From: Trypanosoma brucei
Taxonomy: Eukaryota
Direction of reading: 5' to 3'
Assembly: GCA_000002445.1 (NCBI GenBank)
Contig: CH464491.1
Span: 1,632,001-1,696,000, forward strand
DNA length: 64,000 nt
The notes below the pieces were generated by a model, which worked only from the letters and a program-made list of their open reading frames with translations, was not told the origin of the DNA and made no database searches. The position numbers and the translations under genes are program-made. Shown here in pieces: positions 3,331 through 51,525 of the stretch (its first letter is position 1; each line of letters starts with the position of its first letter).

Positions 3331-3391
3331 TCTTCCTCCTCACTGCCTTCCTTTTTTTTTTTCTTCCCTCTTCCTCCCCTCTTCCTTTGAG
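3331..3391 (+). promoter_or_regulatory. Strong polypyrimidine tract + AG in a gene-free interval (candidate trans-splice/polyadenylation-directing signal)
   Basis: tcttcctcctcactgccttccttttttttttttcttccctcttcctcccctcttcctttgAG. Further T-rich tracts at 2860-2930 and 3061-3137. The nearest downstream CDS start is 2.2 kb away. Confidence 0.4.
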
Positions 3392-23172: not shown

Positions 23173-25704
23173 ATGTTGTCACGGAGCGCCTGGGTGTTTG
23201 CAATGAGTCCTCGCGCGGCACTCACTGCGCTTGGCATCCAGTTCACCTCTAATATCACACAGGCGACTGTCAAGAAGGCATACATTGCACAGACGCTGCG
23301 CTGCCATCCGGATCTCAACCCCGAAGATCCAAATGCGACAGAAAAATTCCGAACTATATCTGAGGCGCTTCGTGTTGTACTGAAGTCCCTTGAAGCGAGA
23401 AGAAATGCAACAGCACCGGGAGAAGGAGCAAAAACCACTGTATGCCCTGCATTCAATGATCCGGAGGGTGCCATAGAGACGCTGCGTCAGGCGGTTGCCG
23501 CTTACCACCGGCATCGAGAGATAATGCGCTCTGCTGCCTTTGTGGCGGGGAAGAATAAGAGTGTGCCGGCTGAGCGGGTAAATCCTTTCGTTGATAACTC
23601 ACTGGAGCATGTGTCTTTTGTCTGCCGCTCGGAGGCCGTTGCGATGCAGAGGGTGCGGCGGTTTTGTAACGAGCTGCCAGAGGTGTTATGCGGTCGTTCG
23701 TGTGCCCTTTTCGAAGCAGTAGCCTTCTTTAACTCACGGTACGTCGAAGCAACGTCTCAATGTGTGCTGCGGTTTTCAAAGAACCTTCCCATAATCGTCA
23801 GCCGAGTTGTGAAGAATCGGAAGAAGTACGTGCGTTACACGCAAAATAAGGCAATTTCGGGTTTTGGAACGGGGAGTCGACCCCAGCGACAGCGCATCGA
23901 AGACATGTCAATGAAACCCCTCGTCCTCGTTGGTGCGTTGATTTTCGACCAGGGAGGCAGGTGCTGCCCAAACGCTGAGTGTTCATGTAGTTCTGAACAC
24001 AGTGGGTCAAACTATAACTTGCACAACTGTAATCAAAGCACTTGCGGCGCCGTGTGCAAGGAAGAACTAAAAATATGTGATGAACTGAAGTGTGTTATCA
24101 ATCCTTCAGATTCAATAGGTGATATCACAGAGAATATTGGTCGTTGGGAAGCCGCTAGTTTTAACCGACTCCAGCTGGAACTTGCAATGGTAGATATCAC
24201 GTCCCTAATCTCCGGTATTCTCGAGCTTAACGACCACCCACTAACAATGATGAACCACTTGCACCTCCCAAAATCGACGTCTGAGAGGGTGTCGTTAACT
24301 CTTCAGAAGCTTGCTTGTGGTTTGTGCCACCACTGCGGCGAACACGAACGTGGAGTTACCACTGACGTGGAAGCCTCTGGTTCCCACCGTTGCCCAGAGA
24401 TAACGACTATCGCAGACAGGATAAACTTCTGCCGACACCTAGCTCACACTGCGGCCAGCTATATTAAAGGAAACATAATCCTCGTGTTGGATGATCATTC
24501 TTCCCTGGTGGAAAGCGCTAATGAAGTGGTTGTGGACGAAGTAGGGGATATTACAACGGGGACGAAACTGAACTCGGTTGATTGTGAAAAAGATTACCAA
24601 GTCGCTCGTCACATGAGTTGCTGCACCGCTGAGATGATACAGTTTTCGGTGTCTGTCAAACTCTCGAAGGACGTGGAACACTTTCTCGACTGCGTAATCG
24701 CCGCGATGACACGGGTGTCTGAGGAAGCTGAATCCTCAGTTTTTACGTTACCAACTCTTCTGGAATTGAGGGAGAGGGTGGTGCAGGAGGAGTTTATCCC
24801 GGTGGGTGAAGGTGCCGGGCAGCTGAATGCAGATGCTGTCAATGAGGGAGTGAATTGTGCAGAAAAATATCCTGCCGAGGCAGTTGCAGCCGCGGAGGGG
24901 AATCTGGAAGGTGGTAGTGTGGAAACGGACAGTGAGTGCCGCGCCGCCAACCAGCTAGACTTCGACTCCTCGCGCCAATTGTGTGAAGTTGAAGAACGAT
25001 GTGACGCAGAATATCGGTACCGCGGGCCAATACGCTGCTTTCCTCGTATATTTTCAATGGATGCACAACAGGAACTCTTGTTCTGGAAAAACGTGCGCAA
25101 ACATCGTTTGTATCTTGCAAGGCGCGCACCCGCCATGAATTCTGTGAATATTTACTACGATTGTATGCCCTACGATCCACATCGGCACTCGCTGCATCAC
25201 GATCTCCGCCGCAATAAGGATGAACTTTTTGCAGGATGGGTGGGTGAAGCTGAGGAGGGTGTAGACGACGCGGTGATTACAAAAAAGGAACTGCAAAGCA
25301 GTGCCATGTTTCTTGAGTGGCTGGAAGATGTTGCGGAGCAATCTTCACTAAACAAGGAATGCCAACGAATAGTCCGCGAGTCGGGAATCGGCTACATCTC
25401 GCGTGATCCGCTGCTTCCTCTACAGCATTACTTATCGTTCGTTAAAGTTTTTTCCGCTGCGGCGACAGTGCGAAGCATCATTGAAAGTGGCGCCAGCAAT
25501 GACAAAGGAGCAACTTCGGAGAACCCTGGCCTATTCATTGTGGTTGGCACGGAGTGCGATGTGCGTGACGGTGGACGGCTTTTAGTGCCGTGGTGGATGG
25601 ATCCCCTAGCACTGCTAGCGCTCTTGCAGTGCGACGACGCACAGGAAACACGCTGCCTCAATGGAGGTGCCGCTGCGTCGCCATCAGCAGCACAAACGCC
25701 ATGA
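23173..25704 (+). CDS. DnaJ (J-domain) protein
   Basis: ATG start. N-terminal region KKAYIAQTLRCHPDLNPEDPNATEKFRTISEA carries the J-domain HPD signature. An internal Cys-rich segment follows (CCPNAECSCSS...CNQSTCGAVCKEELKICDELKC). Last gene of the plus-strand block. Confidence 0.65.
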   Translation: MLSRSAWVFAMSPRAALTALGIQFTSNITQATVKKAYIAQTLRCHPDLNPEDPNATEKFRTISEALRVVLKSLEARRNATAPGEGAKTTVCPAFNDPEGAIETLRQAVAAYHRHREIMRSAAFVAGKNKSVPAERVNPFVDNSLEHVSFVCRSEAVAMQRVRRFCNELPEVLCGRSCALFEAVAFFNSRYVEATSQCVLRFSKNLPIIVSRVVKNRKKYVRYTQNKAISGFGTGSRPQRQRIEDMSMKPLVLVGALIFDQGGRCCPNAECSCSSEHSGSNYNLHNCNQSTCGAVCKEELKICDELKCVINPSDSIGDITENIGRWEAASFNRLQLELAMVDITSLISGILELNDHPLTMMNHLHLPKSTSERVSLTLQKLACGLCHHCGEHERGVTTDVEASGSHRCPEITTIADRINFCRHLAHTAASYIKGNIILVLDDHSSLVESANEVVVDEVGDITTGTKLNSVDCEKDYQVARHMSCCTAEMIQFSVSVKLSKDVEHFLDCVIAAMTRVSEEAESSVFTLPTLLELRERVVQEEFIPVGEGAGQLNADAVNEGVNCAEKYPAEAVAAAEGNLEGGSVETDSECRAANQLDFDSSRQLCEVEERCDAEYRYRGPIRCFPRIFSMDAQQELLFWKNVRKHRLYLARRAPAMNSVNIYYDCMPYDPHRHSLHHDLRRNKDELFAGWVGEAEEGVDDAVITKKELQSSAMFLEWLEDVAEQSSLNKECQRIVRESGIGYISRDPLLPLQHYLSFVKVFSAAATVRSIIESGASNDKGATSENPGLFIVVGTECDVRDGGRLLVPWWMDPLALLALLQCDDAQETRCLNGGAAASPSAAQTP

Positions 25705-25875
25705 GGTGGTTAAACGGAATAAGTTGCTTTTGTTAATCTTGAAAAATATCTGCATTTATTTCACTAATAGTTGGGAAGAAATCTTCCTGTTACCATAATA
25801 CTCTGTTGCTCACTCTACTTTAAACAGCTATTTTTCATGTGCGCACTGGAATGGGAAGGAGCGAGCCGCAATGCT

Positions 25876-26175
25876 ACTGCGGAAAGTCGCACGGCAACCG
25901 GGGCGCAACGGATTTTCCGCCATTGGTAAACTACGGCATGTGACGGACGATAACGGAAAACATGGCACGTGGGAAGACGGTTTTTTGGCCATGGGAAGCT
26001 GCAGCAGTGCTTCCCGACCAAGGAGCAAGAAAGTCGCACGGCAACCGGGGCGCAACGGATTTTCCGCCATTGGTAAACTACGGCATGTGACGGACGATAA
26101 CGGAAAACATGGCACGTGGGAAGACGGTTTTTTGGCCATGGGAAGCTGCAGCAGTGCTTCCCGACCAAGGAGCAA
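25876..26175. repeat. Tandem duplication, 147-bp unit x2, GC-rich, open on both strands
   Basis: The motif aagtcgcacggcaaccggggcgcaacgg recurs at 25884 and 26031 (period 147). The whole unit is repeated near-identically. Each unit contains the hairpin gggaagc-tgcagcagt-gcttccc. Track ORFs on both strands show the 49-aa repeat KVARQPGRNGFSAIGKLRHVTDDNGKHGTWEDGFLAMGSCSSASRPRSK. Confidence 0.85.
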
Positions 26176-26671
26176 AGATCTTTCGGAACCTAACGTGGGA
26201 TGAGGAAGTTTACGGTACGATTGATGACGAAAGAAAGATGCCGCGGCGATCGTTGAGGCATTGCGACCTTCGCATTGAAAATGCCAACAAATCGTCGAGC
26301 GAAGGGATTCACTTTGCCGCGTTTTTCGTCAAAACCGGTCATGCCCGGACTGCTAAAATTCTCGTTTTTTTACGGAGTGGGCCTACTGGGGTGCCCATTC
26401 GCCTTCTATCGTTCTTCACGGATGCCCATACCCTTCGGAAAAGCCTTGTCGTCCTCTCCCCCACGTGGACCGATGAAGAGCGTCCTTAAATCCATTGTCA
26501 GGATTATCCGGAATCTGCTTCTCTGCCCGAAGCCTTTTTACTGGTGCGATGCCTATTAGCACCTCCAACAACGGTATCTGCGGCATCTTCTGGTTTGGTT
26601 GCCATTTAAGATTTCACAGTTTCAGCCGCCGTGGATATTCACCGATTTTCAAGTGGACTTACACGCGCATT

Positions 26672-26687
26672 GGGGGGGGGGGGAGGG
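26672..26687 (+). repeat. G12AGGG homopolymer tract (G-quadruplex-capable)
   Basis: tggggggggggggagggcgcgg read directly in the sequence. Confidence 0.8.
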
Positions 26688-28855
26688 CGCGGCCTTTCAA
26701 TCTAGTCTTATACCCTTCGGTTTAAACGGCGTGCATAAGAAACGTACCGGTCACTTGTGGAGTGGCAATCTTCTTTCCAGGATGTTCTCTGCCCCAACTT
26801 CTTCCTGCGTCGCATATATTGGAGCGGGTATAGTAATTGCCGGAAAGATTCGCCGAGTTCGATTTCTGAAGTTTTGTTTTAATTTTCTACCGTGTCCGCT
26901 TGCTTATGCTGCGTGCGTTTGATACGAACACCTCGTCCCCAGCATTTTTCTGGGCACTGAAGGGTCTTTGCAGGCAGTTTTGTTACCAGAAATGTTGCAT
27001 CATCCATATTTCTCCTTTATTTTTACTGAATTTTTTACAGGGTATTGATTCCTGATGCGTGGGGAAAAGCCTAGAACGCGAGCGTGTCAGTACCACGTTC
27101 CGCACTTTTCCTCAATTGGGAGTTTTGGCGTGGCTCCAAGAAGGGTTTAGTGCTTCCGCCCTCTCCTCCTCCCCCTTGCACTCTTTTCCTTCCCCCTCCT
27201 GTGACTTCTACCCCCAACTCCGCAGGGAGCGAAAGGGGCCGTCTCGTTCTCATTGTCAACCCTTCGCGCTACTAATGGCCGTCGACCCTTATAACACTTA
27301 GTGTCTGTTCCCCCATGCCCTTGAGCACACAACCTAATGCCCACGCACAGAACATACCCGTTTCGGAATTCATCGCCCCAGTGCACCAATCCAACCTTTG
27401 CCTCCCGGAACAAAGCGCTTGTGAAACGTTAGCCCCCGCTTTTTCGCTAAAAAGTTTTCGACCGTGCCTTCAGCTCTCAAATTCGTTGTAAGCATCTACG
27501 TGGCTACCAGCGGTGGAGCGCGTCCATGAATTGTCTTCGCGTTCCATCGCATTTCCAGCACAAGTTATAGATCACTGCTGCGAGTGCCCGTGTTGTTGCC
27601 AAGTTTCTACAATCCCTCCTTATGTTTGTTTGTTTTTTTTTCCAACCTGAAGCGATGCCGGTGGGGAATTCACCAAACACTAGTTTGAACTCTACCATGG
27701 TAAATGGTATGGACCTAAAACCTCCCCGCTGCTCCAAGCAATAACGCCCGTGATGCCATTCGTATCGTATTCTCTCGGTTTCCCTTCCATGTATCCCAGA
27801 GCTCAATCGCCCGCTGATTCTTTGATAACCTCAGACCATTAGTCACTACAATGGGCGTGCTCAACAACCTCAGAACAAGCAGCGAGTTTATCAGGTTCCG
27901 GTCCCTTGATTTATTTTTTGAATTCTGTTTCTAGCCCTTACCTCCTCCATTGTTCTGCGGCCACCTCCTTCAGCACTTGTTTTAGCTTTGCAAATTTTTG
28001 TTCCCTTTTTCCTGCAATTCGCACAATTTTCAGCATCTGCTTCCATATCCGGCATTTCTTTAATCCAGAAAGATGGCACCAACTCATTTCCTTCGCCAGT
28101 TGCTTTCATTGATTCCATGCGGATTGAGGAGGAAATTGCGTTGCCCATCCCATCCGTCATCCTACGGTAATATTAAAAACCGTGGATGAACTTCCTAGAC
28201 GCATATTTGCCGCCGAGTTGCCCAATCGGTGCTATTCCATGCGAATAGTAGACGTCTATGACGGCACAAACGGACTCAATAGCTGTCCCTACGGATGCTT
28301 GCTTCGAGCTTTATTTAACGGTCTACTAACGATGCAAACCATTCCCTCCGGTGGAGAAGATATGTAAAAACATTAGAGCCAGCAGGAGGCCTGTGGTTTC
28401 CCTCAAGTCCGCTTGGAACGGGGGCATTGAACGGTTAGCAGTGGTAAAAGAAAAAAGGAACAATTAAAGCGATTGAAACATCGTACTCGATAACGAACAC
28501 TACCTGGTGCCTTTGAATGATCCCCTCTAAGTATCTTCTTCATGTTTGGATATCTCATGAAGAAAGAGAGAAGGGGGAAAAGAAGGGGGCTTGTTACCTT
28601 CCACTGTAACAATAACCCCCATTCTATTCTCCGCCGCCTTTAGAGAGTCCGAAAATACACGCGTACAGAAACAATCATTTTGGAGAAGATGCGCAAACTT
28701 CTCCCGACTTCCCTCCTCTTCTCACCACGACCCCAACGCCCCCTCAATGGAACAAAAACCACCAACTCCTCATCATGTTTGCACAACCGCTAAGCGGGAG
28801 CGGTTAAGGGGCACCGCGCCGGCATGACTTCTTCCTTCAAACAATATGCAGTTCA

Positions 28856-28878
28856 GTGTGTGTGTGTGTGTGTGTGTG
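28856..28878. repeat. (GT)11 microsatellite
   Basis: gtgtgtgtgtgtgtgtgtgtgtg read directly. Confidence 0.9.
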
Positions 28879-29540
28879 GAAGAATATAGCAGAAAGGGAT
28901 CAAAACAATAACAACATAATGGAGGCAGAAACAATGAAAGCGGTATACGCGATCTGTTGGTGGCTGGAATGTTTTAAAAGTTAAGAGGCCTGCGGGGGAA
29001 CCACATATATAACGACCCCTGCGGAGGCACACGCTAAGATTACAATCTCATAAGTGGCGGAAGCATAGTTCTCACATTGCCACTGTATGAATCCGCTGTC
29101 AATGTTAAAAAGAGAAGGAGAGGGCGCGCAAATAGCGCCAGGCACCATACTGCAGTCCCATGTGAAGGAGACGAAACGTATGGAAACGAAAAAAAAAGGG
29201 AGCGTGTTAATGGAAGAGGGGTTAAATTACAAAATTTAAAAAAATAACTTCGTCACGGAAGCACCTGTCACGTTACCGTATGTGACATGGAAAGAGGGCA
29301 TTTAGCCAGCACCTACAACAGGGGTTGGCGCCAGCATTCGCTATCAAAATAATAATAATAATTAAACAGTAAGGTTATTAAGTGTATGCCAAAGACACAC
29401 CATAAACACATGGAAGGGAATGGAATGTAAACGAATAAAGAGTAGGGATACAGTGGCGAACATCAACATTAACATCCAGATGAGTGATTCTGTATCAGCA
29501 CCACGTCTGCCTGCAAGGGTGTGGGGGATGAGATTTAAAA

Positions 29541-29560
29541 ATATATATATATATATATAT
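29541..29560. repeat. (AT)10 microsatellite
   Basis: atatatatatatatatatat about 200 bp beyond the GRESAG4 stop codon. Confidence 0.9.
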
Positions 29561-29759
29561 TTGTCGGGCGCAAAGGCACCGGCAAGGCACCCTAGTAAGC
29601 CGTTGCTGGTTAAATAACGCTAAGAAATAAGTCGCTTAGTGCGAGGTAGTAGAAGGAAGTGCATCTGATTTAAAACACAAAACAATAACTTTAAAAAAAA
29701 ACAAAAACGATTCTCGCATAAGGTGTGGGTTGGTAAGGGGGAAAATAGCTACGCAACTC

Positions 29760-32700
29760 TCACACCGACACAAAGGGCTGGTCAGCAGAGAAGCACTCAT
29801 CAAGTTGCGAGCAACGGTTGGAGATGTAAATCACTGATGTGCTGTGAGTGCTGGTAGTGAGTTCATTATTACCATTCGCAGAGTGATCCACAACCCGTCC
29901 CACCTTTGCGGCAATACGGCGTATCACATCCCCGCAATAAACATCGTCCCAGACTGGATTCGCCTGGTTGGGAAGAGGGACACGCCATCGCTCACAATAC
30001 GGCCGCAGGAGTTTCTCGCGCTGGGGGACCTTAAATGTACTGAGGAGTGCCTCCAGGGAGCTCGCAATCATTTGGGCGGACTCGCTCAAATCAGCCAGTG
30101 ATGAACTGTGGTCGCTTGTGGTTATGGTTGTCCCGTCGCCGCCCTCGTCAAAATAGTATTCACGGTCAAGCCGCAGTGCTGCGAAGGTGCGACCAGGCAC
30201 GGCGTTCAACTGGTAAAGTTCCACTGGTTGTGGTGCACCACGCAGTGCAACAAGCCCCAGGGGGACGACGTCGATTTCCTTTCGTTCATCTTCGCTCAGA
30301 GCAAGGTATGTGGCCCGAGTTAGCAGCACCTGACCGCCGTTCGCGACGCTCTCCGTACGTGCGGCCATGTTAGTTGTACCCCCATAGTAGTCGTAGCCCT
30401 TCGTCACTTCATCATAGCGGATGTCACACAACCCGGTATGAACACCTACACGTACACGCAAGCCGTTCCAGAGACTCCCGTACACGTCAGGAGCAAGACG
30501 GGCAGTGGGTGGAGTGTACTCTTTATCGTCGCAAGCTCGCTGCTCTTCAAAGGCATGATAGAAGCGGTCGAACACCTCCGTTTCCCATTTGTGACTCAGG
30601 AATTGCCGCTGGAGTTCACTCACGAGCTGCACCGCAGCAAATGGGCTCCGGCAAGCAATCATGAACGAGTCACCAATCGTTTTCACTTCGTAGCAGTTGT
30701 ACTCGACCATCAGGGACCGGATAATTTTATGGTGTGACGCCACGGCGTCAGGCATAAGCTCGGGGAAACCGGCCCACTGTGCTGTGCTGCTCTCAATGTC
30801 CGTGAACACGAGTGTAACGGGCTCCGTCGATTCCCTCGGCGCAAGCTCGTTGTCGCGGGCATTGCGCAGGGTGAAGTACAGTACCAGAGCAAGCGCAGCG
30901 AGCAGCAATGCGACGAGGGTAGAGCCAATAGCAATCGCAATCACCTGCCCTTGTGTAAGTTTGTTTTCGTCGACGTAAACTAGCGTTGGTGTCACACCAT
31001 TTTGTAGCGGCGGTGTGGCGGGATCCAGCAATCGAGTCAGGGACCACACGGAGATGTTTGTTCCCCCGTAATTGGAAAGGCAATTGCTGGCAAGAGCGAC
31101 GCCATTCACAATGCAATCAACATCGCTAAAGGGCCCGTACCGCATGTCATCGACGTTGATGGTGGACTCGGAGTAGAAATAGTCAGCCAGCAATTTCGCG
31201 TCAACCTTCTCCATATGGTCAAGGACGGACACCATCAGCCGCGCCGTGGAAAAGCCCCGCAACGACATGGGAGTTCTCATCGCCGGCTCAGGCACGGCCT
31301 TGTGGTAAGCTTGAACAGTCAGTGACGACGAGTTCTCCTCCGCCCAGTGGGGCTGGTTGGTGGCGAATACGAAGCGGTTGGTGGTCGTAGGCGGGGTTCT
31401 GCTAAATGCTGCTCTCAACTCCTCGTACATTAGCGTTACATCAGGATAAATGGCGAAGATCCGTAGACCTCTTTTAGCATCAAGGTGCTCAGCCAGGTCA
31501 TACACCTCTAACGCCGTAAACCCAATAACAAACACGTCCCCGCTAGAGGGGAGATGGGGTTTCAACGAGCCCTCATTATCCACAATTACCTTCGATTGCA
31601 TGAAAATACCGTACGTCCGCAGTGTGGCTATCAACACCTCCAATATCATATCCGCATCGTGGGTTCGAATCACTACACGCACGTTTCCGCCAGGGTGCTC
31701 CGAGATGTACTGAACCAGAACATAGAGTTCCTGCGCAAGCGTAGGTGACACGTATATCACGTTTCGGTTAAACCTGTTCATACGAGGGTTGCTGGTTATG
31801 GGGTCAATGAACGCCAAATTCTCCGTGGCCAAGATTTCCTTATTCACGACGCCAAACAGGGCCGGGATCACCTTCACATCACGCATTTGCTCCAGTTGCT
31901 CGACAGCCTCATCGCCCGTTGCCTCTAAGGGATGCAAGAAGAACCTGTCACGCTCTCCAATCCGGCCGTTGCCCAGCAAGGCGGAGGCGCCGTTAAGATA
32001 CCTCAGACTCGCGCGGTAAACAACCACATTGTCCATCAACTGCACAATAAGGCCGTTCAATGGTGCGCGCAGAACAACACCAGCGCTGGAGCACTCTGAT
32101 GCGCCCCACGTCAGAAACCCCGTGACCACGGGCTGCAACCGAAAACCATCCACGACCTCCTTCATGTACACCACGCTCCCACCCTGGTTGCACTGACACA
32201 CAGCACCTTGCCATGCAGCAAACGCATCGCAATCACCTCCAAAGTCGCCAACAACGAGATCATCAATAAGGTAGCGCCGTTGTTCGTACAGTGAGTCTAT
32301 GAATGCTGTGCTGTTAGTTAACGACAATGTGCTCCGGAGAGCTCGTGATACGACTTCCCCGGTGATCCATCCAGTGAGCATCAACTCCCCGCTGGTATCA
32401 TCTTCAAGGAGTTCCTGTCGCATCGCAAACCTGTGCCCCTCATCACTAGATGAGAGGTACTCGTCCACCTCTTCCCGGAACCGTTTCACAACCGCAAATC
32501 GTGCGTGGTTCGAGAGGGGGTTAACACCGCTTATAATCAGTTGTCCGGGTATCAGTTCACGACCACTCTCCTCTAAGGCATCCCGCCAAGTATTAATCAG
32601 GAAAACCTGAGCGCTGGATGGCGCAAGTACGTACACACCTGTGGTGCGATCGTCGGTAGCCATTCTCCTCACAAACTCTCTGGTGACGGGATTGGGTGAG

Positions 32701-33494
32701 CCAAGTAAAAGCACGGCTAATGGGCGGGTATTCACAAACTGCTCCCACTCGGCATCAAACGCGGTGCTGACAACCTCCAGTCCACCGGTACCCTCGAGGG
32801 AGAAAGTTCCGCTCAACTCGTACCCCATTCCCGACAATATCTTTAAGGTGAACGCATGCGACTCCTTACCGAAATATGAGTCACTCAGATACATAAACCC
32901 AAGGCGGGAAAGTCGCAGGGTGACGGCAAAGTATCGAATCAGGGTCAGCAGTTCAGCGTCTGGCTCAGCGGTAGTGAAGTACAGGTGGCGATTCCACCCA
33001 CGAGCCTCATCCGAGTAAGTTAGGGGTGAGAAAGCAACTACATCGTTGTTCTTAAGGTGTTCGAGGGACCAGAGCACATTGTCGTTGCCCAGCGGACCCA
33101 CTGCTATCAAAAGCTTTCCTTTACTTGCCTCCACGGCACTCTCAAAAAGCTCCTCAATAGGCTGGTCATGGGACGAGGGTCGAATGACAGAGACTTTCAC
33201 CCCGTTGGGGATGTCTCCACGACGGGCGGCCAGCGACGCCTCGAAACCGGTGCTCAGGGCGTCAACACTCACCTTGGGGAATTTAGGGTTGTACATAAGG
33301 TAGAGAATGTTGACTGTCACCTCCGCGCCGGCAGCCACACGCACCCCAACGGACAGCAGCGCGAGGAGCGCCACCGCCATGGTGAAGGGGCGCGGTAAGT
33401 TGGACGCAACCAACGGCGGGGCCCGGACGACACGCGAGGCAGGACGGCAATTCAATACCGCCCCGCACCCACCACACAAACGGTAATCGTTCAT
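29760..33494 (-). CDS. GRESAG4: Receptor-type adenylate cyclase (GRESAG4 / ESAG4-like)
   Basis: 1244-aa ATG-start ORF. N-terminal signal peptide (MAVALLALLSVGVRVAAGA), large extracellular periplasmic-binding-protein-like region, single TM (VIAIAIGSTLVALLLAALALVLYFTL), then class III cyclase motifs LVFTDIESSTAQWA, YEVKTIGDSFMIA, GVHTGLCDIRYDEVTKGYDYYGGTTNMAARTES. Architecture is that of trypanosome receptor adenylate cyclases. Confidence 0.9.
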   Translation of the reverse strand: MNDYRLCGGCGAVLNCRPASRVVRAPPLVASNLPRPFTMAVALLALLSVGVRVAAGAEVTVNILYLMYNPKFPKVSVDALSTGFEASLAARRGDIPNGVKVSVIRPSSHDQPIEELFESAVEASKGKLLIAVGPLGNDNVLWSLEHLKNNDVVAFSPLTYSDEARGWNRHLYFTTAEPDAELLTLIRYFAVTLRLSRLGFMYLSDSYFGKESHAFTLKILSGMGYELSGTFSLEGTGGLEVVSTAFDAEWEQFVNTRPLAVLLLGSPNPVTREFVRRMATDDRTTGVYVLAPSSAQVFLINTWRDALEESGRELIPGQLIISGVNPLSNHARFAVVKRFREEVDEYLSSSDEGHRFAMRQELLEDDTSGELMLTGWITGEVVSRALRSTLSLTNSTAFIDSLYEQRRYLIDDLVVGDFGGDCDAFAAWQGAVCQCNQGGSVVYMKEVVDGFRLQPVVTGFLTWGASECSSAGVVLRAPLNGLIVQLMDNVVVYRASLRYLNGASALLGNGRIGERDRFFLHPLEATGDEAVEQLEQMRDVKVIPALFGVVNKEILATENLAFIDPITSNPRMNRFNRNVIYVSPTLAQELYVLVQYISEHPGGNVRVVIRTHDADMILEVLIATLRTYGIFMQSKVIVDNEGSLKPHLPSSGDVFVIGFTALEVYDLAEHLDAKRGLRIFAIYPDVTLMYEELRAAFSRTPPTTTNRFVFATNQPHWAEENSSSLTVQAYHKAVPEPAMRTPMSLRGFSTARLMVSVLDHMEKVDAKLLADYFYSESTINVDDMRYGPFSDVDCIVNGVALASNCLSNYGGTNISVWSLTRLLDPATPPLQNGVTPTLVYVDENKLTQGQVIAIAIGSTLVALLLAALALVLYFTLRNARDNELAPRESTEPVTLVFTDIESSTAQWAGFPELMPDAVASHHKIIRSLMVEYNCYEVKTIGDSFMIACRSPFAAVQLVSELQRQFLSHKWETEVFDRFYHAFEEQRACDDKEYTPPTARLAPDVYGSLWNGLRVRVGVHTGLCDIRYDEVTKGYDYYGGTTNMAARTESVANGGQVLLTRATYLALSEDERKEIDVVPLGLVALRGAPQPVELYQLNAVPGRTFAALRLDREYYFDEGGDGTTITTSDHSSSLADLSESAQMIASSLEALLSTFKVPQREKLLRPYCERWRVPLPNQANPVWDDVYCGDVIRRIAAKVGRVVDHSANGNNELTTSTHSTSVIYISNRCSQLDECFSADQPFVSV

Positions 33495-33560: not shown

Positions 33561-35170
33561 GGTGGTAGAGTGGTGGACAACAACTAAAGCACTGGTGCAA
33601 TAGAAGACGGCCGAAGCAAGTCTCGAACGATCATCTCGCCGGTAGCCCACGGCACTGCGCAGAATGGCACTAACAAGCCGCCCCCTGCGCGCAACAACAA
33701 GCACGGAAAGGTGTCTTCACGCACTGTGGTGTCCAGCAACTTACGTATGGAGTGACACAAAGGGCATGGTGCCAAAGTTTGGACGGAGTGCATCTAACAA
33801 GTCAAAATGACGGGTGATAACGGCTTTGGTTTATCTTCCTTGGGGTTAGTGTCATCGCCTTCGTTCTCGTTTCGTCGGCAACCGCTCACAGGGCAAGGCA
33901 AATAAGACTGTAGATGCTGTAACTATCTAATACGCACATCGGTGTAAAACCTGAATTCTGCGTAGGAACCTCGCATGTGAGGGTGTTTAGGTTATCGATC
34001 ACAAAGAACCGTTACGTCGTTCCATGTTTTTCACACATCACAACGAGTGGGCAGCAGAAAGGGTTGCATTTTCACTGATGAATATGAGTTATGTCGACAA
34101 CAGTAATGATATCGCAGCGACTCTGCGTGAAGAGTTCATCCTCATCAACATATTTCTTCTATCAATGTATGAATTCAATGCAATACAAGCACAATTAAGT
34201 CGACGAGTTAACGCCGCGGCATCCGTGGAGGTCGAAAAGGTGCTTCACAGGTCTTGCACAGCACCAAAGAGCGGAGACTTGTTATCGTCAGGACGCAAAA
34301 CAGTCAGCACACCGCAGCGTACACCGCCGGCAAGCGTGACTCCAGGGGAGCGCATGGATGGAGCTTTAAAATCTCCGGATGATAACATCTTAAGTGTGAT
34401 GCAAAAACTAAACAGTCGACGCCAACGAAATTCACGAGTAATGATTAGACGGAAAGGCCTTATGCACCCTCTGCATTCAATCTACCCACGTCAAACTTCC
34501 ATAACTCACAAGTCGTTTGTATCTTCTACAATTCAATAACGGCATGATCCAGCATAAACCGTCAAATCCCTGTCAAAGCAGGTCGCAACTCGCCTTGCAC
34601 AATCTTCACTCAGCTGGGGTAACAAACAAAAACTGACAAAGGGGGAAAGAAACACGTCAACAGAAGCGTTATTAAGGGCACCCCAACATGAAAAAGGGAG
34701 CGAATCCGCCACCCTCAAAGCCCCCTTTCCCACCTCATATGAACGGAGAACGAAAAAAAAATTGAATAAAAAAATGAGGGGAGTTCAGTACAACAACAAA
34801 AGTAAATAAATGGCAAAAGATGACAGCATCCTTACGGTGTCTTCCCGTCCCCGTTTTGCTTCCTACGTTTATTACGTATACGTTATTTTAGTCATACCCT
34901 TTCCCATTTTGCGCAGTAACTTATGCTTCCCTACCCGTCCACTAGCACAGTCCCTTCTCTACGTTATTTTTCACACAGCTAACACACCGCCGATGCGCCT
35001 GAAGAGGCACAAAAGAGTGCGCATAGACTAGGGTCGAAGGATTAAAAATTTCCGTCCTCTGTGGACACAATAAACATCTCGGAAGATGCTCCAAAAGAAA
35101 TAAACAAATACAAAAAAATTAAGAAAAAAAAACAAGTGGTACTGTCTACTACGAACTCCTTGGTTCAACT

Positions 35171-35494
35171 TCAAACGGTTGCCTGCTCCTTCTTTGCACC
35201 ATCATCAGCAGCCGTTTCGTTAGCGCCGGGATTTTCATTGTTCTCAGGTCCGTCAGCGCGCGTCATTTCTTCCGTTTCCTCATCAGATGCACCAGGGATG
35301 TGAAGCTCATCAGGACGGCGGTGTGCAACATACAATGCAATGCCAATGCCTACCACTGTAATACCGAGGCAAACCCATACGAGTGGGAATTCCTTTTCAG
35401 TGGCACCACCCGGAGCGGGATCTGGGGCGGCGGCACGCACCACCTCCATAACGAAGGCGATGGCAAAGACAAGTGCGACGGATTTCGAGAACAT
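35171..35494 (-). CDS. Small single-pass membrane protein (108 aa), copy 1 of tandem pair
   Basis: First ATG at 35494 (MFSKSVALVFAIAFVMEVVRAAAP...): hydrophobic N-terminal signal, TM segment FPLVWVCLGITVVGIGIALYVA, stop-transfer HRR, acidic cytoplasmic tail (DEETEEMTRADGPENNENPGANETAADDGAKKEQATV). The longer track ORF begins in repeat-junction sequence and is probably not the real start. Confidence 0.45.
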   Translation of the reverse strand: MFSKSVALVFAIAFVMEVVRAAAPDPAPGGATEKEFPLVWVCLGITVVGIGIALYVAHRRPDELHIPGASDEETEEMTRADGPENNENPGANETAADDGAKKEQATV

Positions 35495-36099
35495 AACGAA
35501 CTTTAAAATAGCTTGAGAGAAAAACTGCGCTAGAAGTATCCTGTCACAATAGAAGAATAGTGAAAATGAAAGAGAAAGAATCACGTCAACAGAAGCGTTA
35601 TTAAGGGCACCCCAACATGAAAAAGGGAGCGAATCCGCCACCCTCAAAGCCCCCTTTCCCACCTCATATGAACGGAGAACGAAAAAAAAATTGAATAAAA
35701 AAATGAGGGGAGTTCAGTACAACAACAAAAGTAAATAAATGGCAAAAGATGACAGCATCCTTACGGTGTCTTCCCGTCCCCGTTTTGCTTCCTGCGTTTA
35801 TTACGTATACGTTATTTTAGTCATACCCTTTCCCATTTTGCGCAGTAACTTATGCTTCCCTACCCGTCCACTAGCACAGTCCCTTCTCTACGTTATTTTT
35901 CACACAGCTAACACACCGCCGATGCGCCTGAAGAGGCACAAAAGAGTGCGCATAGACTAGGGTCGAAGGATTAAAAATTTCCGTCCTCTGTGGACACAAT
36001 AAACATCTCGGAAGATGCTCCAAAAGAAATAAACAAATACAAAAAAATTAAGAAAAAAAAACAAGTGGTACTGTCTACTACGAACTCCTTGGTTCAACT

Positions 36100-36423
36100 T
36101 CAAACGGTTGCCTGCTCCTTCTTTGCACCATCATCAGCAGCCGTTTCGTTGGCGCCGGGATTTTCATTGTTCTCAGGTCCGTCAGCGCGCGTCATTTCTT
36201 CCGTTTCCTCATCAGATGCACCAGGGATGTGAAGCTCATCAGGACGGCGGTGTGCAACATACAATGCAATGCCAATGCCTACCACTGTAATACCGAGGCA
36301 AACCCATACGAGTGGGAATTCCTTTTCAGTGGCACCACCCGGAGCGGGATCTGGGGCGGCGGCACGCACCACCTCCATAACGAAGGCGATGGCAAAGACA
36401 AGTGCGACGGATTTCGAGAACAT
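36100..36423 (-). CDS. Small single-pass membrane protein (108 aa), copy 2 of tandem pair
   Basis: Identical predicted protein to 35171..35494, exactly 929 bp away; one silent nucleotide difference. Confidence 0.45.
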   Translation of the reverse strand: MFSKSVALVFAIAFVMEVVRAAAPDPAPGGATEKEFPLVWVCLGITVVGIGIALYVAHRRPDELHIPGASDEETEEMTRADGPENNENPGANETAADDGAKKEQATV

Positions 36424-37401
36424 AACGAACTTTAAAATAGCTTGAGAGAAAAACTGCGCTAGAAGTATCCTGTCACAATAGAAGAATAGTGAAAATGAAA
36501 GAGTTTTGAAATAGAAACAACGCAACATCGTCCACGGGGTTCATAAATATAAATAAATTATTTTATCCAGTTTGAAAAGGGAAAAGGGGCTGAGGAAAAT
36601 TTCTTTGTTATTGCCCATCCCACATATCTTGCCTGTGGCCCCGGAAAGTGACGATGCACTTTTTCGTCTGGACCATCATTGACTTCCGATATCTTTTGTA
36701 GCTTAATTTCCGTATATTCGATCAACTAGAAAGTAGGGATGTGGAACGGAAATCAGTTACCTAACTGCGACCGCCGCAGTCCTTGAGCAGCGAAACAATC
36801 GGCAGAGGAAACAGGCATCCGTCTACGAAACGAATTTACATTTACAGAAATACGAACACGTAGTGGAAGCACGTGTGCGAAGGAAGGACAAAATGAAGCA
36901 TCAGACCCATATAAGCCCAATTACCACATTACGTTCCTTCCTTCTAACCCCCACACACAAAAGAAAAAAAAATCGTTCAGCTCACCTATCCTGCCTCACG
37001 GTGTGAGGACATGAAAGTAAGCGGAGACAACAAAGAAATAAACTCAAATGAAGTGATGAATTGGAAAAGTAGGTACTGAACGAAACATTATCCTCGGTCG
37101 AAATATAGGGAATCCCTGGTGATTTTACCCACACGCAAAAAAAAAACAAAACAAAACAAAAGAACACCGTCGGTGTATTCATATATGATGTCGTGATGAG
37201 TGTAATACTCACCGAAGGCACGATAGAACGGCCAACAAAAATGAAAATAACAGTGTCAAGAAAAATATATGTTTAAATATATATATATATCAGTAAAAAT
37301 GAGCTACGCTGTGAAGACCATGGCACAACATGGTGCCATAAAGTCGGGTACATGCAACGCACACTTGTAACCCAATTGAAGAACACGATATTCTCAAACT
37401 C

Positions 37402-39546
37402 CTACTGATAAGATACTTGAACCATTAAAAAAGAGCCATGTATAATAGATCCTTTGAGGTCTCGAAGGGGGACCTGGCGAATTCCTTTTTTTAGGGCACG
37501 TAATGGCACAACATATTCACCCAGAAGGTTATTGCTTTTGGTATCCTCGTCATACACCTGCATGACAAGGGTGGACAGTTCCCACTCGTACACCTTCCAG
37601 CAGAACTCGTTGTTTAGGCGCTCACCCCGCCAGACAGGATGAAAGCCATTATTGTGAATGGGAGATGTGTTTCGTTGGCTTTTCTCCATGCCGGGGCCCT
37701 CAATCAAGGCGGCTACGCGAGAATCCACAATACTGCTACCGGATGCATTTTTCCGCCTGGGAAGACAGAAAGCTGATATAATTTCTATTGTGAGCAACCG
37801 TGACTGCCGTTTTGGCCCCCTTGCACGTGCAATGTCCACAGCAGTCGGTTTGAGAAGGTAGCCGCAGTTACCATTGTCGCTGAAGAACCCCCTATTTAGC
37901 CTAAGCTGGTATGACTTGTAATTCTGCCAATTGAGTGCAACTAGTTGGCACCCACAATTCCAAAACGTTTGAGGATGAAAGTTACTGCTACCGATGCGAG
38001 TTCCTGTGGGGTATATGCGACTCAAACACCGATTATTGATGGCAACAAACTCCTCCTGGTTAGAAGAGGCAATTTTCCCCGCTTTCCCTTCAGTAAAAGA
38101 GCTGCAGTGATATGGTTGACGCATTTCAAGATAACTTAGATCCTCAACACCCTTATAACCAATGGATTCGATTGAAATAAGACGAGATAGTTTCTCTGAA
38201 ACCTTTGAAACCTTCTTTTTCTTTTCAGCACCCCTTGAATTCGTTTTTCCACCACCGCGACAACGCCGAGCAGTTTCAGGTGGTACGAAATTTTCCACCA
38301 CACCATCGGCTTCCTCATCCTCATCGTCGTCATCATCAACCTGTACCCCATCGGTAGGTGTAGTAGCCCGTTTGCTCTTTAGCAGAATTTTTCCCTTTAG
38401 CGCTTCCGGCGAGAATGTGAAAGAAGTCTGTTCACCAGCACCCCAAGGACTGCAGAATAGCATATCTCCGAGCGTTTCACACAAAATTTCCGCCATTCGA
38501 TCCTGTTGGCGGAGGCTAGTGTGAACCTCAAGCGACAAAATGACAGGGTATATTGAATTAACGAAAGCATACTTCTTGATCGTGCTAATACAGTCCCGGA
38601 ACCAAAGCTTGGAAGTCCTTGTGTAACCATGATAAACTACAGGCTGACCCTTGCGACCATCCCAACAATCAAGTTCAACGCAGCGGCAGCCATCCAGTAG
38701 AACCCTCTTGTACATATCCGTGGAAGATTTGCTCAAGAGTTGATCACCCGTAAGGTAGGTATTGTGCGAGGAATTGATGAAATACTCACATATCGGGCGA
38801 GTCATATCGTGGTAAACACTAGACACCTTTCTGTTGTTCACAATGGAGTTAAAGCGCCTGTCGCTGAGAAATGATAAGAATGCGTCCAAATGTACAGGAT
38901 GCTCTTCGGTACAGCCAACAGCGTCTAGAAATACGTGCAGCTCCTCACCATCGGCACCCTCTCCTTGAGTTTCCTTCAGGAAGGTAACAAACTCAGCCTT
39001 TGTCATCACGTCCCGATCGGGACCCACAATATTTCGCATTGCATATGTCAGTTCATTAAGTCTTGTCAGAGACATAAATGTCCCCTGCATCAACTTGTAG
39101 TTTGCCCTCCCCCCTGTAGCTTCCAGCTCGTCAATCATCTTTTGTGAGAGCCTTTCAGGGAAGCTCAAACCCTTCAAGATTTTCCTCAATTCACGAACGC
39201 ATATGTCCCCGCTGTTGTCGTCGTCGTACTTTATCCATATCATCATGAACTTCGCGTGATTCACATCCCATTTTATGAGATTCAGCGGATTTGCAGCACA
39301 AAAGGAAGTAAACAACTCTGCCGCCCGTGGGTTTGCACTACTTGCGCATGCAAGGAACTCGACGGCATCCTCCCGGCTGCACTTCAAAAGGTCCGTGATG
39401 GCTCCCAGCAGAGAAGAAAAGAAGGGCTGAAGCTCGTGTGCCTCAACTGCCCCTGTCGAAAGATGCTCATCAACGAGGTTGCCGGTACGGTGGGAGTAAC
39501 ATGCGAGTTTCTCTTCTGAGAGCCCACGTGACGTACACCCTCCCAT
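37402..39546 (-). CDS. PLC: Phosphoinositide-specific phospholipase C (PI-PLC)
   Basis: 714-aa ATG-start ORF. X-box motifs [12 protein letters not shown] and VELDCWDG; Y-box SLEVHTS and [12 protein letters not shown]; acidic X-Y linker ([12 protein letters not shown]); C-terminal C2-like region. N-terminus MGGCTSRG fits the N-myristoylation (G2) plus palmitoylation (C4) consensus. Confidence 0.85.
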
Positions 39547-49593: not shown

Positions 49594-51525
49594 TTAATAA
49601 ATGAACCCACCCCTCTTTTTGATTCGCAGGAAAAAATATACTGCCAAGGGGAGAGCCAACACATTGACAATAGCACACACAACAAGAGGAATCCACACGC
49701 ACACAGTCCCCACACATTCACGAACATCCCACAACCCCTGTTTTTTGCTGTAATGATCGTAAATGGGGCCGAAGAGGCCGACGTTGAAAATTATCGGTGA
49801 GACAATTCCTGCGGTGAACAAAACGGCGTAATGCTTACCGCAGCTTGTTGGAGCAAACAAACTTTTAATTACAAGAATTGTACTTCCCCAAGACACACCA
49901 GTCGCAAGACCAATGATAAAAAAAGGGAGGAACAACGCACTCTTCGGAATAAAAATAAACAAAGGCAAACCAATAATATTCAGAACAGGAGCTCCGCAAA
50001 GAAATATAGATATGGGTATCTTACGGCTGACAAGCATGGGGTGAATCGAACCCACAATCACACGGCCAACGGCACTGGCCACGCCGTAAATGGAGACGTA
50101 TGCCACATTGACCGTTGAAGAGTAGTTATCAAAGTTAAGTGCTTTGTAAATCTGCGTGCTGTTTGTTGAAACCAAAGTTGCCGAGCTCCATGCCGCAAGG
50201 CACGAGTACCACATAACCCACATCTCACGCCTGAGAATGTTTGTGAGCAGCGAGTCGCCGTTCAACTTTATTCCCTGCAACTCCGCAACAACTTCGCTGT
50301 TATTCACGGTTCGCTCGTGGTTGCTCCTTTCCGCAGCCCTTCGCCCCTCTTCGTTAGGGTTCAAAAGGTTATCCCCATTTTGCGGTTCGGTGGGCTCTCG
50401 TTCATTCAGTCCATTTGTATCATCTTTTGAAACGCCTCTGCCACGCCCAATCCCCTCTGCATCAGGTGCATTTACGTCACAACGTCTCGCTGTTTCATTA
50501 TCCACAGCTTCAGTGGGTGCCCGCTGTGAATTACAATTATTTTGTCCGGGCACTGTAGTGGTCATCTCGTCCACCAAATGGGAACTCCACGATGAGTTCG
50601 CAGACCGAGAGTGGTACCCACCCACATTATTGGAGTAGCTCGGCGTTGCAAGGATCATAAACAAGAAGCTCACGCACAAAATAATTGTGGTGATTCCTAT
50701 AATATGACGATCAGAAACAGATATTTCACGGTAATTCTCTACCATTGTCACGATGAAGGTGTACATGATGGCAACGAAGAGAATCCCGGTCCCTACGTTG
50801 AACGGAACTTTGAATAGCGAAGATTCGCCACCTCCGCTCGCAACAACACCCTTGTCAGGGATGCTCAATCCCAAGCATTGCGTCTTCTCGGTTGGCAAAC
50901 GAACGAACAGTGTTCCAAGTACGCCAACAGTAAACGAGTACAACACCAAAAAAAGGAAGAAGGGCCATATACCGTCGAAGTGAATCTCAAAGAAGGCAAT
51001 GTAAATTTGAACGATAAGGGAGCTTCCAAGACCCATAAACGTTTTCTGTACAAGAATCACGCGTCCCTGATAGCATATAAATGCATCCAGATTAGTTAGG
51101 AGACTCCCCGTCTCATAAAAGCTGGCTGAAAACTGTGAAATGGCGTAGAAGAGACTCATTACCCAAAGACTGGTCCCCATCAAAGGATCCTCAGGTTTGA
51201 GAAAAATTAGCATCATACCAAGCCACCCTACCACATTCAGCACCGTTCCCACCATGAGGGTTACCTTTGGACCCTTTGCGTCGTACAAGAATCCTGTCGG
51301 TAGCGAAAAGTAGCTAAAAATGACACCGATGGTGGACAGAACATTCACCTGAGATTGGTTAAACATAAATGCACCACCCTTCATGAATGGGGTAAATATA
51401 CCAAAGCAAAAGCAAGCCCCATTGTTGAGACAGATCAATATGCTAACAAAAAACTGAAGAAACCAGCGTCGTTCCAACGTGCATCCAAGCGCATACGTGC
51501 GCTCTCCAGCTTGCTCCAAATGCAT
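49594..51525 (-). CDS. Nodulin-like / major-facilitator-superfamily membrane protein
   Basis: 643-aa ATG-start ORF. About 6 N-terminal and 6 C-terminal hydrophobic helices separated by a long hydrophilic loop rich in Asn/Ser/Glu. N-terminal half resembles nodulin-like MFS proteins (GFLYDAKGPKVTLMVG...). Confidence 0.6.
   Translation of the reverse strand: MHLEQAGERTYALGCTLERRWFLQFFVSILICLNNGACFCFGIFTPFMKGGAFMFNQSQVNVLSTIGVIFSYFSLPTGFLYDAKGPKVTLMVGTVLNVVGWLGMMLIFLKPEDPLMGTSLWVMSLFYAISQFSASFYETGSLLTNLDAFICYQGRVILVQKTFMGLGSSLIVQIYIAFFEIHFDGIWPFFLFLVLYSFTVGVLGTLFVRLPTEKTQCLGLSIPDKGVVASGGGESSLFKVPFNVGTGILFVAIMYTFIVTMVENYREISVSDRHIIGITTIILCVSFLFMILATPSYSNNVGGYHSRSANSSWSSHLVDEMTTTVPGQNNCNSQRAPTEAVDNETARRCDVNAPDAEGIGRGRGVSKDDTNGLNEREPTEPQNGDNLLNPNEEGRRAAERSNHERTVNNSEVVAELQGIKLNGDSLLTNILRREMWVMWYSCLAAWSSATLVSTNSTQIYKALNFDNYSSTVNVAYVSIYGVASAVGRVIVGSIHPMLVSRKIPISIFLCGAPVLNIIGLPLFIFIPKSALFLPFFIIGLATGVSWGSTILVIKSLFAPTSCGKHYAVLFTAGIVSPIIFNVGLFGPIYDHYSKKQGLWDVRECVGTVCVWIPLVVCAIVNVLALPLAVYFFLRIKKRGGFIY

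What the first reader, a model, noticed from the sequence alone, without database searches (positions are those of the whole stretch)
25705..29759. Convergent strand-switch region (about 4 kb) with no Pol III gene but several structured repeats
All CDS left of 25704 are on the plus strand and all right of 29760 on the minus strand, so two polycistronic units terminate head-on here. In trypanosomatids such termination zones are marked by base J and histone variants H3.V/H4.V and often hold tRNA/snRNA genes. I scanned for A/B-box tRNA signatures and found none. The region instead holds a GC-rich 147-bp tandem duplication, a G12 tract, (GT)11 and (AT)10. At 4 kb it is long for a termination zone lacking Pol III genes. 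Overlapping read-through transcripts from both blocks would make dsRNA here.
Basis: partly seen in the sequence, partly recalled or inferred. Interest (0 to 1): 0.5.

Follow-up and report, generated by a model that had tools for sequence, protein, structure and literature searches.

The report
Ordinary, already-catalogued trypanosome transcription termination zone
This 4-kb gene-free stretch is where two head-on gene arrays of Trypanosoma brucei chromosome 11 stop being transcribed; it is real, but it is a typical example of a well-studied kind of site, and this very locus already appears in published termination and small-RNA datasets.

Summary
Window 25705-29759 is a 4055-bp convergent strand-switch region (cSSR) with no tRNA or Rfam hit. 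It contains a perfect 147-bp x2 duplication, G12, (GT)11.5 and (AT)10.

The window is T. brucei brucei TREU927 chromosome 11. The flanking genes are Tb927.11.5920 (J-domain protein, + strand) and Tb927.11.5940 (GRESAG4 adenylate cyclase, - strand).

It is frameshifted in T. b. gambiense and T. b. equiperdum.

The locus is already in the literature:
- Schulz 2016 used Tb927.11.5920 as a representative cSSR-proximal gene. Antisense RNA to both flanking genes rises when base J and H3.V are removed.
- Tschudi 2012 (CTU46) and Reynolds 2016 list a chromosome 11 cSSR at matching coordinates. It gives modest, two-stranded, DCL2-dependent siRNAs.

The 4-kb length is not anomalous. T-richness flips sharply at about 28.3 kb, so the interval is two back-to-back 3' tails of about 2.6 and 1.45 kb. 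tRNAs were reported in only 2 of 15 cSSRs analysed.

The repeats are polymorphic between subspecies and look neutral. The 147-bp duplication is TREU927-specific.

Verdict: interpretation supported, already known, low interest.

The parts
23173..25704 (+). Last gene of the + strand polycistronic unit: J-domain protein Tb927.11.5920. The TREU927 GenBank model EAN79555 starts at 23524 (726 aa).
   Evidence: Pfam DnaJ hit at residues 25-76. 99% identical to the T. b. gambiense orthologue. Cluster members listed. Schulz S6 gives a start-to-cSSR distance of 2182, which matches the 2181-nt model.
25705..29759 (.). Convergent strand-switch region (Pol II termination zone), 4055 bp.
   Evidence: Literature.
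25882..26175 (+). Perfect tandem duplication of a 147-bp unit (56% GC). It is single-copy in T. b. gambiense, T. b. equiperdum and T. equiperdum OVI.
26109..26489 (+). Tb927.11.5930 / EAN79556.1, 'hypothetical protein, unlikely' (126 aa). Its ATG lies in repeat copy 2. In gambiense and T. b. equiperdum a 1-bp insertion puts that ATG out of frame.
26672..26687 (+). G12AGGG, the only + strand canonical G-quadruplex motif in the window. The run is G14 in gambiense.
27159..27200 (+). Strong polypyrimidine tracts on the + strand. They could be an RNA-processing signal inside the + strand tail.
   Evidence: The function is inferred.
28300..28350 (.). Compositional switch point. The cumulative T-minus-A walk peaks at 28316, which is also the maximum for the whole 64 kb. 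The pyrimidine walk peaks at 28349.
   Evidence: homopolymer polarity.
28521..28625 (.). Two adjacent imperfect palindromes (hairpins). They include a 31-nt polypurine tract at 28559-28589, which reads as polypyrimidine on the - strand.
   Evidence: z is about -2.5 to -2.9 with 200 shuffles, which is not significant after scanning 210 windows.
28856..28878 (.). (GT)11.5 microsatellite, 8 bp shorter in gambiense.
29541..29560 (.). (AT)10 microsatellite, about 6 bp shorter in gambiense.
29760..33494 (-). Last gene of the - strand unit: receptor-type adenylate cyclase GRESAG4, Tb927.11.5940 / EAN79557.1.
   Evidence: Exact sequence match. Pfam hits. Gene ID and name.

Best explanation
The interval is a standard convergent strand-switch region of T. 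brucei TREU927 chromosome 11, lying between Tb927.11.5920 and Tb927.11.5940.

Proposed mechanism:
1. RNA polymerase II from the + unit runs past the J-domain gene. Polymerase from the - unit runs past the adenylate cyclase gene.
2. Each continues through its own T-rich 3' tail, about 2.6 kb and about 1.45 kb. The two tails meet near 28.3 kb.
3. Elongation is stopped by chromatin carrying base J and histone H3.V (with H4.V), read by the JBP3/PNUTS/Wdr82 (PJW/PP1) complex. No specific DNA terminator or Pol III gene is involved.
4. Residual overlap of the two transcripts gives dsRNA. Nuclear DCL2 dices it into a modest amount of AGO1-bound siRNA.

The repeats (147-bp duplication, G12, GT and AT runs) are neutral, polymorphic by-products of unconstrained DNA. 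The site is also a synteny breakpoint where the Trypanosoma lineage differs from Leishmania.

What is shown: the geometry, the absence of genes and RNA genes, the composition flip, the polymorphism, and the published J/H3.V dependence of antisense RNA to both flanking genes.

What is inferred: the exact stop position, the presence of J and H3.V on this DNA, and the equation of this window with CTU46 / the fifth chromosome 11 cSSR, which rests on coordinates.
For: Identity: the adenylate cyclase protein matches TREU927 EAN79557.1 exactly, and the 126-aa ORF matches EAN79556.1 exactly.

Gene IDs: PI-PLC1 is Tb927.11.5970. 5930 is 'unlikely' and 5940 is 'GRESAG 4'. 5920 lies 2182 nt from the cSSR edge, matching the 2181-nt model. 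Two 107-aa gene copies fill 5950 and 5960.

No Pol III or known RNA gene.

No conserved CDS:
- All ORFs of 100 aa or more are frameshifted in the sister subspecies. The 89-aa ORF has 3 of 4 substitutions nonsynonymous.
- There are no pseudogene relics.

Composition: the T-A walk peaks at 28316, the maximum for the whole window. T-runs lie left of the switch and A-runs right of it.

Constraint: divergence from gambiense is 1.16%. Other intergenic DNA gives 0.78-1.71% and CDS gives 0.29-0.83%.

Published experiments on this locus:
- Tb927.11.5920 antisense rises from 0.071 to 0.403 in J-null H3.V-null cells (q 0.010). It is one of five genes confirmed by stranded qPCR.
- Tb927.11.5940 antisense log2 RPKM is -9.97 in wild type, -2.48 in J-null, -6.54 in H3.V-null and -1.81 in the double mutant.
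- CTU46 (1654000-1666000) gives 434 top and 356 bottom reads. The dcl2-/- level is 0.8% of wild type.
- The Tb427 chromosome 11 cSSR at 1651056-1661888 gives 3 RPM in wild type and 10 RPM in the H3.V knockout. For 21-27 nt reads the FDR is 0.011.
- The Tb927.11.5930 transcript is low-level and enriched in the RBP33 immunoprecipitate.
Against: I could not read any ChIP or J-IP track for this exact DNA. The presence of J, H3.V and H4.V here is inferred from mutant phenotypes of the flanking genes.

Reynolds 2016 reported no read-through into opposing units by small-RNA-seq after H3.V or J loss. This contrasts with the mRNA-seq result of Schulz 2016.

The CTU46 / cSSR 11.5 assignment rests on coordinate agreement across three assemblies (1.65-1.675 Mb) and on a 314-kb spacing check. 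It is not a sequence match.

The RBP33 table labels Tb927.11.5930 as downstream of a 'divergent' SSR. That conflicts with the geometry and is probably a slip.

The interval is the largest gap in the window.
Confidence: 0.9

Rival explanations
1. The interval hides a functional unannotated gene, either a small protein or a long non-coding RNA such as the Tb927.11.5930 transcript. In that case the true termination zone would be much shorter.
For: Tb927.11.5930 is annotated in TREU927 and in T. equiperdum OVI. A transcript is marked as detected in Kolev et al. and is about 8-fold enriched in the RBP33 immunoprecipitate. Strong polypyrimidine tracts at 27159-27200 (+) and 28559-28589 (-) could drive trans-splicing. 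The first 800 bp show low divergence, 3 substitutions in 796 bp.
Against: In gambiense and T. b. equiperdum the start codon of the 126-aa ORF is out of frame with the rest of the ORF. The 103-, 110- and 64-aa ORFs are also frameshifted there. The remaining ORFs carry mostly nonsynonymous changes. None except 5930 is in the 15-billion-protein collection. There is no Rfam family hit. Read counts are tiny, 48 and 39 against 6. There is no DNA similarity to T. cruzi or T. vivax.
Confidence: 0.1
2. The repeats and structures are functional signals that position base J, stop Pol II or nucleate dsRNA, rather than neutral DNA. The candidates are the G12 G-quadruplex motif, the twin palindromes at 28521-28625, the GT and AT runs and the 147-bp duplication.
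For: G12AGGG is the only + strand G4 motif in 64 kb. The twin hairpins sit 200-300 bp from the compositional switch and gave the lowest z in a 210-window scan. From my own recollection, not checked here, J has been linked to G-rich DNA in Leishmania.
Against: All four simple repeats differ in length between TREU927 and gambiense, and the duplication is absent from three relatives. Hairpin z of -2.5 to -2.9 is what about 200 tests would give by chance. Tandem-repeat density equals that of other intergenic DNA. The literature reports no defined termination sequences downstream of the last gene of a unit.
Confidence: 0.06
3. The region holds a Pol III gene or another known structured RNA that the first reader missed.
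For: None was found. tRNA genes do occur in a minority of T. brucei cSSRs.
Against: ARAGORN finds none in the window or in seven related loci. Rfam finds none at gathering thresholds and only E>0.4 noise with permissive filters. There is no B-box.
Confidence: 0.01
4. The unusual length reflects another chromosomal function sited at the strand switch, such as a replication origin or a recombination and insertion hotspot.
For: The site is a synteny break. In L. donovani the genes after the J-domain gene continue on the same strand. In T. cruzi the convergent gap is only 1.36 kb and is followed by different genes. In T. vivax 10 kb with no called gene follows. In T. brucei a member of the expanded GRESAG4 family sits at the boundary.
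Against: Nothing in the sequence marks an origin. No retroelement or pseudogene relic was found in the interval. A recombination history explains how the region arose, not a present function, so it is compatible with the best explanation.
Confidence: 0.05

Closest known systems
T. brucei convergent strand-switch regions / convergent transcription units (Tschudi 2012 CTU1-50; Reynolds 2016, 72 cSSRs; Schulz 2016)
   Same: The geometry is head-on and there is no defined terminator. Antisense RNA to the flanking genes is suppressed in a J/H3.V-dependent way. siRNAs come from both strands and depend on DCL2. The length falls in the 1-5 kb class. This locus appears to be CTU46, the fifth chromosome 11 cSSR.
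   Different: Nothing material differs. siRNA output is about the median in procyclic AGO1 immunoprecipitates (116 normalised; range 4-4888) and low in bloodstream small-RNA-seq (3 RPM). TREU927 carries a private 147-bp duplication.
tRNA/snRNA-containing termination regions of trypanosomatids
   Same: They also sit between converging or head-to-tail units and also end Pol II transcription.
   Different: There is no Pol III gene here. In T. brucei only 2 of 15 cSSRs analysed held tRNAs.
Leishmania cSSRs marked by base J
   Same: Base J lies at the ends of converging units, and J loss causes read-through into the opposite unit.
   Different: L. major lacks a complete RNAi pathway, so no siRNAs arise there. 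At the orthologous J-domain gene, L. donovani has no strand switch at all.
CIR147 centromeric 147-bp satellite of T. brucei
   Same: The unit length is the same, 147 bp. CIR147 is also an siRNA source and is H3.V-enriched.
   Different: Here there are only two copies, 56% GC, unique among the sequences held and single-copy in sister subspecies. Sequence similarity to CIR147 could not be tested. The shared length is most likely coincidence.

Membership tests
Trypanosomatid convergent strand-switch region (Pol II termination zone) | Two co-directional gene arrays converge, with no conserved CDS between them. | tested here: met
   ORF map. The only annotated ORF inside is 'unlikely', and its start codon is out of frame with the ORF in sister subspecies.
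Trypanosomatid convergent strand-switch region (Pol II termination zone) | Sense-strand compositional polarity (T- and pyrimidine-richness of non-coding DNA) flips inside the interval. | tested here: met
   The T-A walk maximum at 28316 is the maximum of the whole 64 kb. Homopolymer polarity agrees.
Trypanosomatid convergent strand-switch region (Pol II termination zone) | Loss of base J and H3.V raises antisense transcripts of the flanking genes. | tested here: met
   Looked up in published tables: Tb927.11.5920 (S6 Table, Fig 4D-F) and Tb927.11.5940 (S2 Data) of Schulz 2016. The gene-ID mapping was verified.
Trypanosomatid convergent strand-switch region (Pol II termination zone) | Physical enrichment of H3.V, H4.V and base J on this DNA. 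| not testable with these tools
   No ChIP or J-IP tracks are available. General statements only.
T. brucei siRNA-producing convergent transcription unit | Small RNAs of 21-27 nt from both strands, dependent on DCL2. | tested here: met
   CTU46 gives 434 top and 356 bottom reads, and dcl2-/- retains 0.8% of wild type. The Tb427 cSSR at 1651056-1661888 rises from 3 to 10 RPM in the H3.V knockout. The assignment to this window rests on coordinate agreement and is an inference.
Pol III gene-bearing strand-switch region | A tRNA, snRNA, 5S or 7SL gene lies within the interval. | tested here: not met
   ARAGORN, Rfam and an A/B-box scan were all negative.
CIR147 satellite | Long arrays of a shared 147-bp unit at centromeric regions. 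| tested here: not met
   There are two copies only, unique to this locus among held sequences and single-copy in three relatives. Similarity to the CIR147 consensus was not testable because no sequence was available.
snoRNA cluster or other tandem ncRNA array | Repeat units matching C/D or H/ACA snoRNA models. | tested here: not met
   There are only sub-threshold archaeal sR28 and sR55 hits, at E 0.78 and 4.5, and both lie outside the repeat.

The most novel reading that the evidence does not exclude
The sharp compositional switch at about 28.3 kb, the adjacent twin palindromes (28521-28625) and the lone G-quadruplex motif (26672-26687) could be sequence-encoded elements. They might fix where base J and H3.V are laid down, or where convergent polymerases stop and dsRNA is nucleated. 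If so, T. brucei termination zones would have a DNA-level grammar that has so far escaped detection.
Probability: 0.04. Interest if true: 0.45.

Novelty: already known. Interest (0 to 1): 0.1.

Why it matters
It matters little beyond bookkeeping. The locus is a textbook T. brucei termination zone, and published work has already covered its J/H3.V dependence and its DCL2-dependent siRNAs.

The useful by-products are minor:
- a base-level estimate of where the two transcription polarities meet (about 28.3 kb);
- evidence that Tb927.11.5930 is not a conserved gene;
- the observation that this cSSR is a Trypanosoma-specific synteny break occupied by a GRESAG4 gene.

Tried and rejected
- tRNA and Pol III genes: ARAGORN, Rfam at gathering and permissive thresholds, and an A/B-box regex were all negative.
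- Hidden CDS: all ATG ORFs of 45 aa or more were listed. An exact look-up of ten found only the 'unlikely' EAN79556. Intactness in gambiense and equiperdum showed frameshifts or nonsynonymous drift.
- Pseudogene relics: tblastn of 33 neighbouring T. brucei, T. cruzi, L. donovani and T. rangeli proteins against the interval gave nothing below E 0.15.
- Structured RNA: a z-score scan of 210 windows on both strands found only the twin hairpin at 28.5-28.6 kb. On re-test with 200 shuffles it was z -2.5 to -2.9, so not significant.
- Cross-species DNA conservation: there was no blastn match to the T. cruzi or T. vivax loci.
- CIR147 relationship: I looked for a CIR147 sequence in the Tschudi 2012 oligonucleotide file and found none, so this is untested.
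- T. cruzi 107-aa gene as orthologue of the T. brucei 107-aa gene: rejected, no similarity.
- Exact-protein look-ups for TREU927 contigs failed because TREU927 is not in the gene-position index. The TREU927 coordinate of the window is therefore inferred.
Full report
**Where the window comes from.** The 1244-aa minus-strand protein at 29760-33494 is identical to EAN79557.1, a receptor-type adenylate cyclase GRESAG4 of T. brucei brucei TREU927. The 126-aa ORF at 26109-26489 is identical to EAN79556.1, 'hypothetical protein, unlikely', of the same strain. The 843-aa plus-strand protein at 23173-25704 carries a J domain. It is 99% identical to the T. b. gambiense chromosome 11 orthologue. TREU927's own model of it (EAN79555) is a shorter 726-aa version.

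**Gene IDs follow from the literature.**
- PI-PLC1 (window 37402-39546) is Tb927.11.5970.
- Tb927.11.5920 is a 'hypothetical protein, conserved' whose start lies 2182 nt from a cSSR edge. That equals the 2181-nt TREU927 J-domain model.
- Two tandem copies of a 107-aa gene fill 5950 and 5960.

**Observation.** All large ORFs left of 25704 are on + and all right of 29760 are on -. The gap is 4055 bp. ARAGORN finds no tRNA in the window. Rfam finds nothing at gathering thresholds and only four chance-level hits with permissive filters. No B-box exists.

The repeats are as described:
- a 147-bp unit x2.0 at 25882-26175, 100% identical;
- G12 at 26672-26683;
- (GT)11.5 at 28856-28878;
- (AT)10 at 29541-29560.

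Tandem-repeat density is about 1 per kb, the same as in the other roughly 23 kb of intergenic DNA. Only the duplication and the G-run stand out.

**Anatomy.** Non-coding DNA in this window is T-rich on the transcribed strand. The cumulative T-minus-A walk peaks at 28316, and this is the maximum for the whole 64 kb, not just the interval. T-runs of 9 or more all lie left of 27.7 kb. Of the 27 A-runs, 23 lie right of 29 kb.

The 4 kb is therefore two back-to-back tails with essentially no neutral middle. One is about 2.6 kb with + polarity and the other about 1.45 kb with - polarity. Polypyrimidine tracts at 27159-27200 (+) and 28559-28589 (-) could be processing signals inside each tail. This is an inference.

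Two adjacent imperfect palindromes at 28521-28625 gave the lowest folding z-score in a 210-window scan. On re-test they reach only -2.5 to -2.9, which is not significant after multiple testing.

**Is anything encoded?** In gambiense and T. b. equiperdum a 1-bp insertion just after the ATG throws the start of the 126-aa ORF out of frame. The 103-, 110- and 64-aa ORFs are also frameshifted in those subspecies. The 89-aa ORF shows 3 nonsynonymous changes out of 4.

No relic of neighbouring or orthologous-context proteins is present. Divergence from gambiense is 1.16%. Other intergenic DNA gives 0.78-1.71% and CDS gives 0.29-0.83%. The interval evolves as unconstrained DNA.

The simple repeats are polymorphic: G12 against G14, (GT) 8 bp shorter and (AT) about 6 bp shorter in gambiense. 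The 147-bp unit is single-copy in gambiense, T. b. equiperdum and T. equiperdum OVI. It occurs nowhere else in the sequences held. The duplication is therefore recent and TREU927-specific.

**Published experiments on this locus.**
- Schulz et al. 2016 (PMC4721952) chose Tb927.11.5920 as one of five representative cSSR-proximal genes. Antisense RNA rose from 0.071 to 0.403 in J-null H3.V-null cells (q 0.010) and was confirmed by stranded qPCR.
- On the other side, antisense to Tb927.11.5940 went from undetectable (log2 RPKM -9.97) to -2.48 without J, -6.54 without H3.V and -1.81 without both.
- Tschudi et al. 2012 (PMC3447711) list CTU46 at Tb927_11_01_v4 1654000-1666000. It has 434 top-strand and 356 bottom-strand AGO1-bound small RNAs, about the median of 49 units. 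The count fell to 0.8% of wild type in dcl2-/-.
- Reynolds et al. 2016 (PMC4721609) list a Tb427 chromosome 11 cSSR at 1651056-1661888. It gives 3 RPM in wild type and 10 RPM in the H3.V knockout, with FDR 0.011 for 21-27 nt reads.

I equate those entries with this window for four reasons:
- The gambiense coordinate is 1.671-1.675 Mb.
- The nearest other listed cSSRs are more than 300 kb away.
- The 314-kb spacing to the previous cSSR matches the Schulz gene distances.
- The 10.8-kb quantified region roughly equals J-domain gene plus gap plus cyclase gene.

This is an inference, not a sequence match.

RBP33, which binds silenced RNAs from unit ends, enriches the low-level Tb927.11.5930 transcript. 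The JBP3/PNUTS/Wdr82 complex is required for termination at cSSRs in general.

**Is 4 kb long?** No.
- Schulz et al. analysed cSSRs measuring 1-5 kb between 3' UTRs.
- Mean 3' UTR length is 676 bp, and no defined terminator sequence is known.
- Within-unit gaps of 2.6 and 3.4 kb occur in this same window.
- Pol III genes are the exception: tRNAs were found in 2 of 15 cSSRs analysed.

**Evolution.** The J-domain gene ends a plus-strand unit in T. brucei, T. cruzi and T. rangeli. The T. cruzi gap is 1.36 kb and is followed by unrelated genes. T. vivax has 10 kb with no called gene. L. donovani continues on the same strand after a 4.7-kb gap. The cSSR is thus a synteny break. In T. brucei it is occupied by a member of the expanded GRESAG4 family.

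**Verdict.** The repeats are neutral. Interest is low. The only open thread is whether the switch-point palindromes or the G4 motif have any role, and I rate that unlikely.

Noticed in passing
window 34645-36528: The 107-aa small membrane-protein gene is tandemly duplicated: 35171-35494(-) and 36100-36423(-), with a 929-bp period. A 300-nt 99% identical repeat lies at 34645-34944 and 35574-35873. The two copies are presumably Tb927.11.5950 and 5960.
   Followed up: partly
window 23173-23523: The TREU927 GenBank model of Tb927.11.5920 (726 aa, start 23524) omits the upstream 117 codons. Those codons contain the whole J domain (residues 25-76 of the 843-aa ORF), and the gambiense and equiperdum models include them. 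The TREU927 model looks N-terminally truncated.
   Followed up: partly
L006 12428-17155 (L. donovani): In Leishmania the J-domain gene is followed by a 4.7-kb gene-free gap and then by genes on the same strand. No tRNA lies in the gap. The Trypanosoma convergent switch therefore sits at a synteny breakpoint.
   Followed up: partly
L003 12257-22256 (T. vivax): About 10 kb downstream of the T. vivax J-domain gene has no called gene. It consists largely of DNA that is pyrimidine-rich on the minus strand, with long spurious ORFs.
   Followed up: no
L002 13913-22553 (T. cruzi): The minus-strand genes after the T. cruzi cSSR recur as a repeated set of about 107-120, 270 and 207 aa, flanking an MFS/nodulin-like gene. 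That gene's T. brucei homologue lies 20 kb further into the unit (window 49594-51525).
   Followed up: partly
window 29760-33494 (Tb927.11.5940): In the RBP33 paper's table this GRESAG4 mRNA is RBP33-enriched (log2FC 2.7). It ranks 7755 and 7690 of 7782 for translational efficiency, that is, it is almost untranslated.
   Followed up: no
L005 13367 (T. equiperdum OVI contig end): The OVI assembly contig ends inside the cSSR, about 835 bp after the J-domain stop codon. The cyclase is on a separate 53-kb contig. This suggests the interval is hard to assemble from short reads.
   Followed up: no
PMC4162612 Table S1 (Tb927.11.5930): [quoted passage not shown] That conflicts with the convergent geometry seen in the sequence and is probably a slip in the table.
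   Followed up: no
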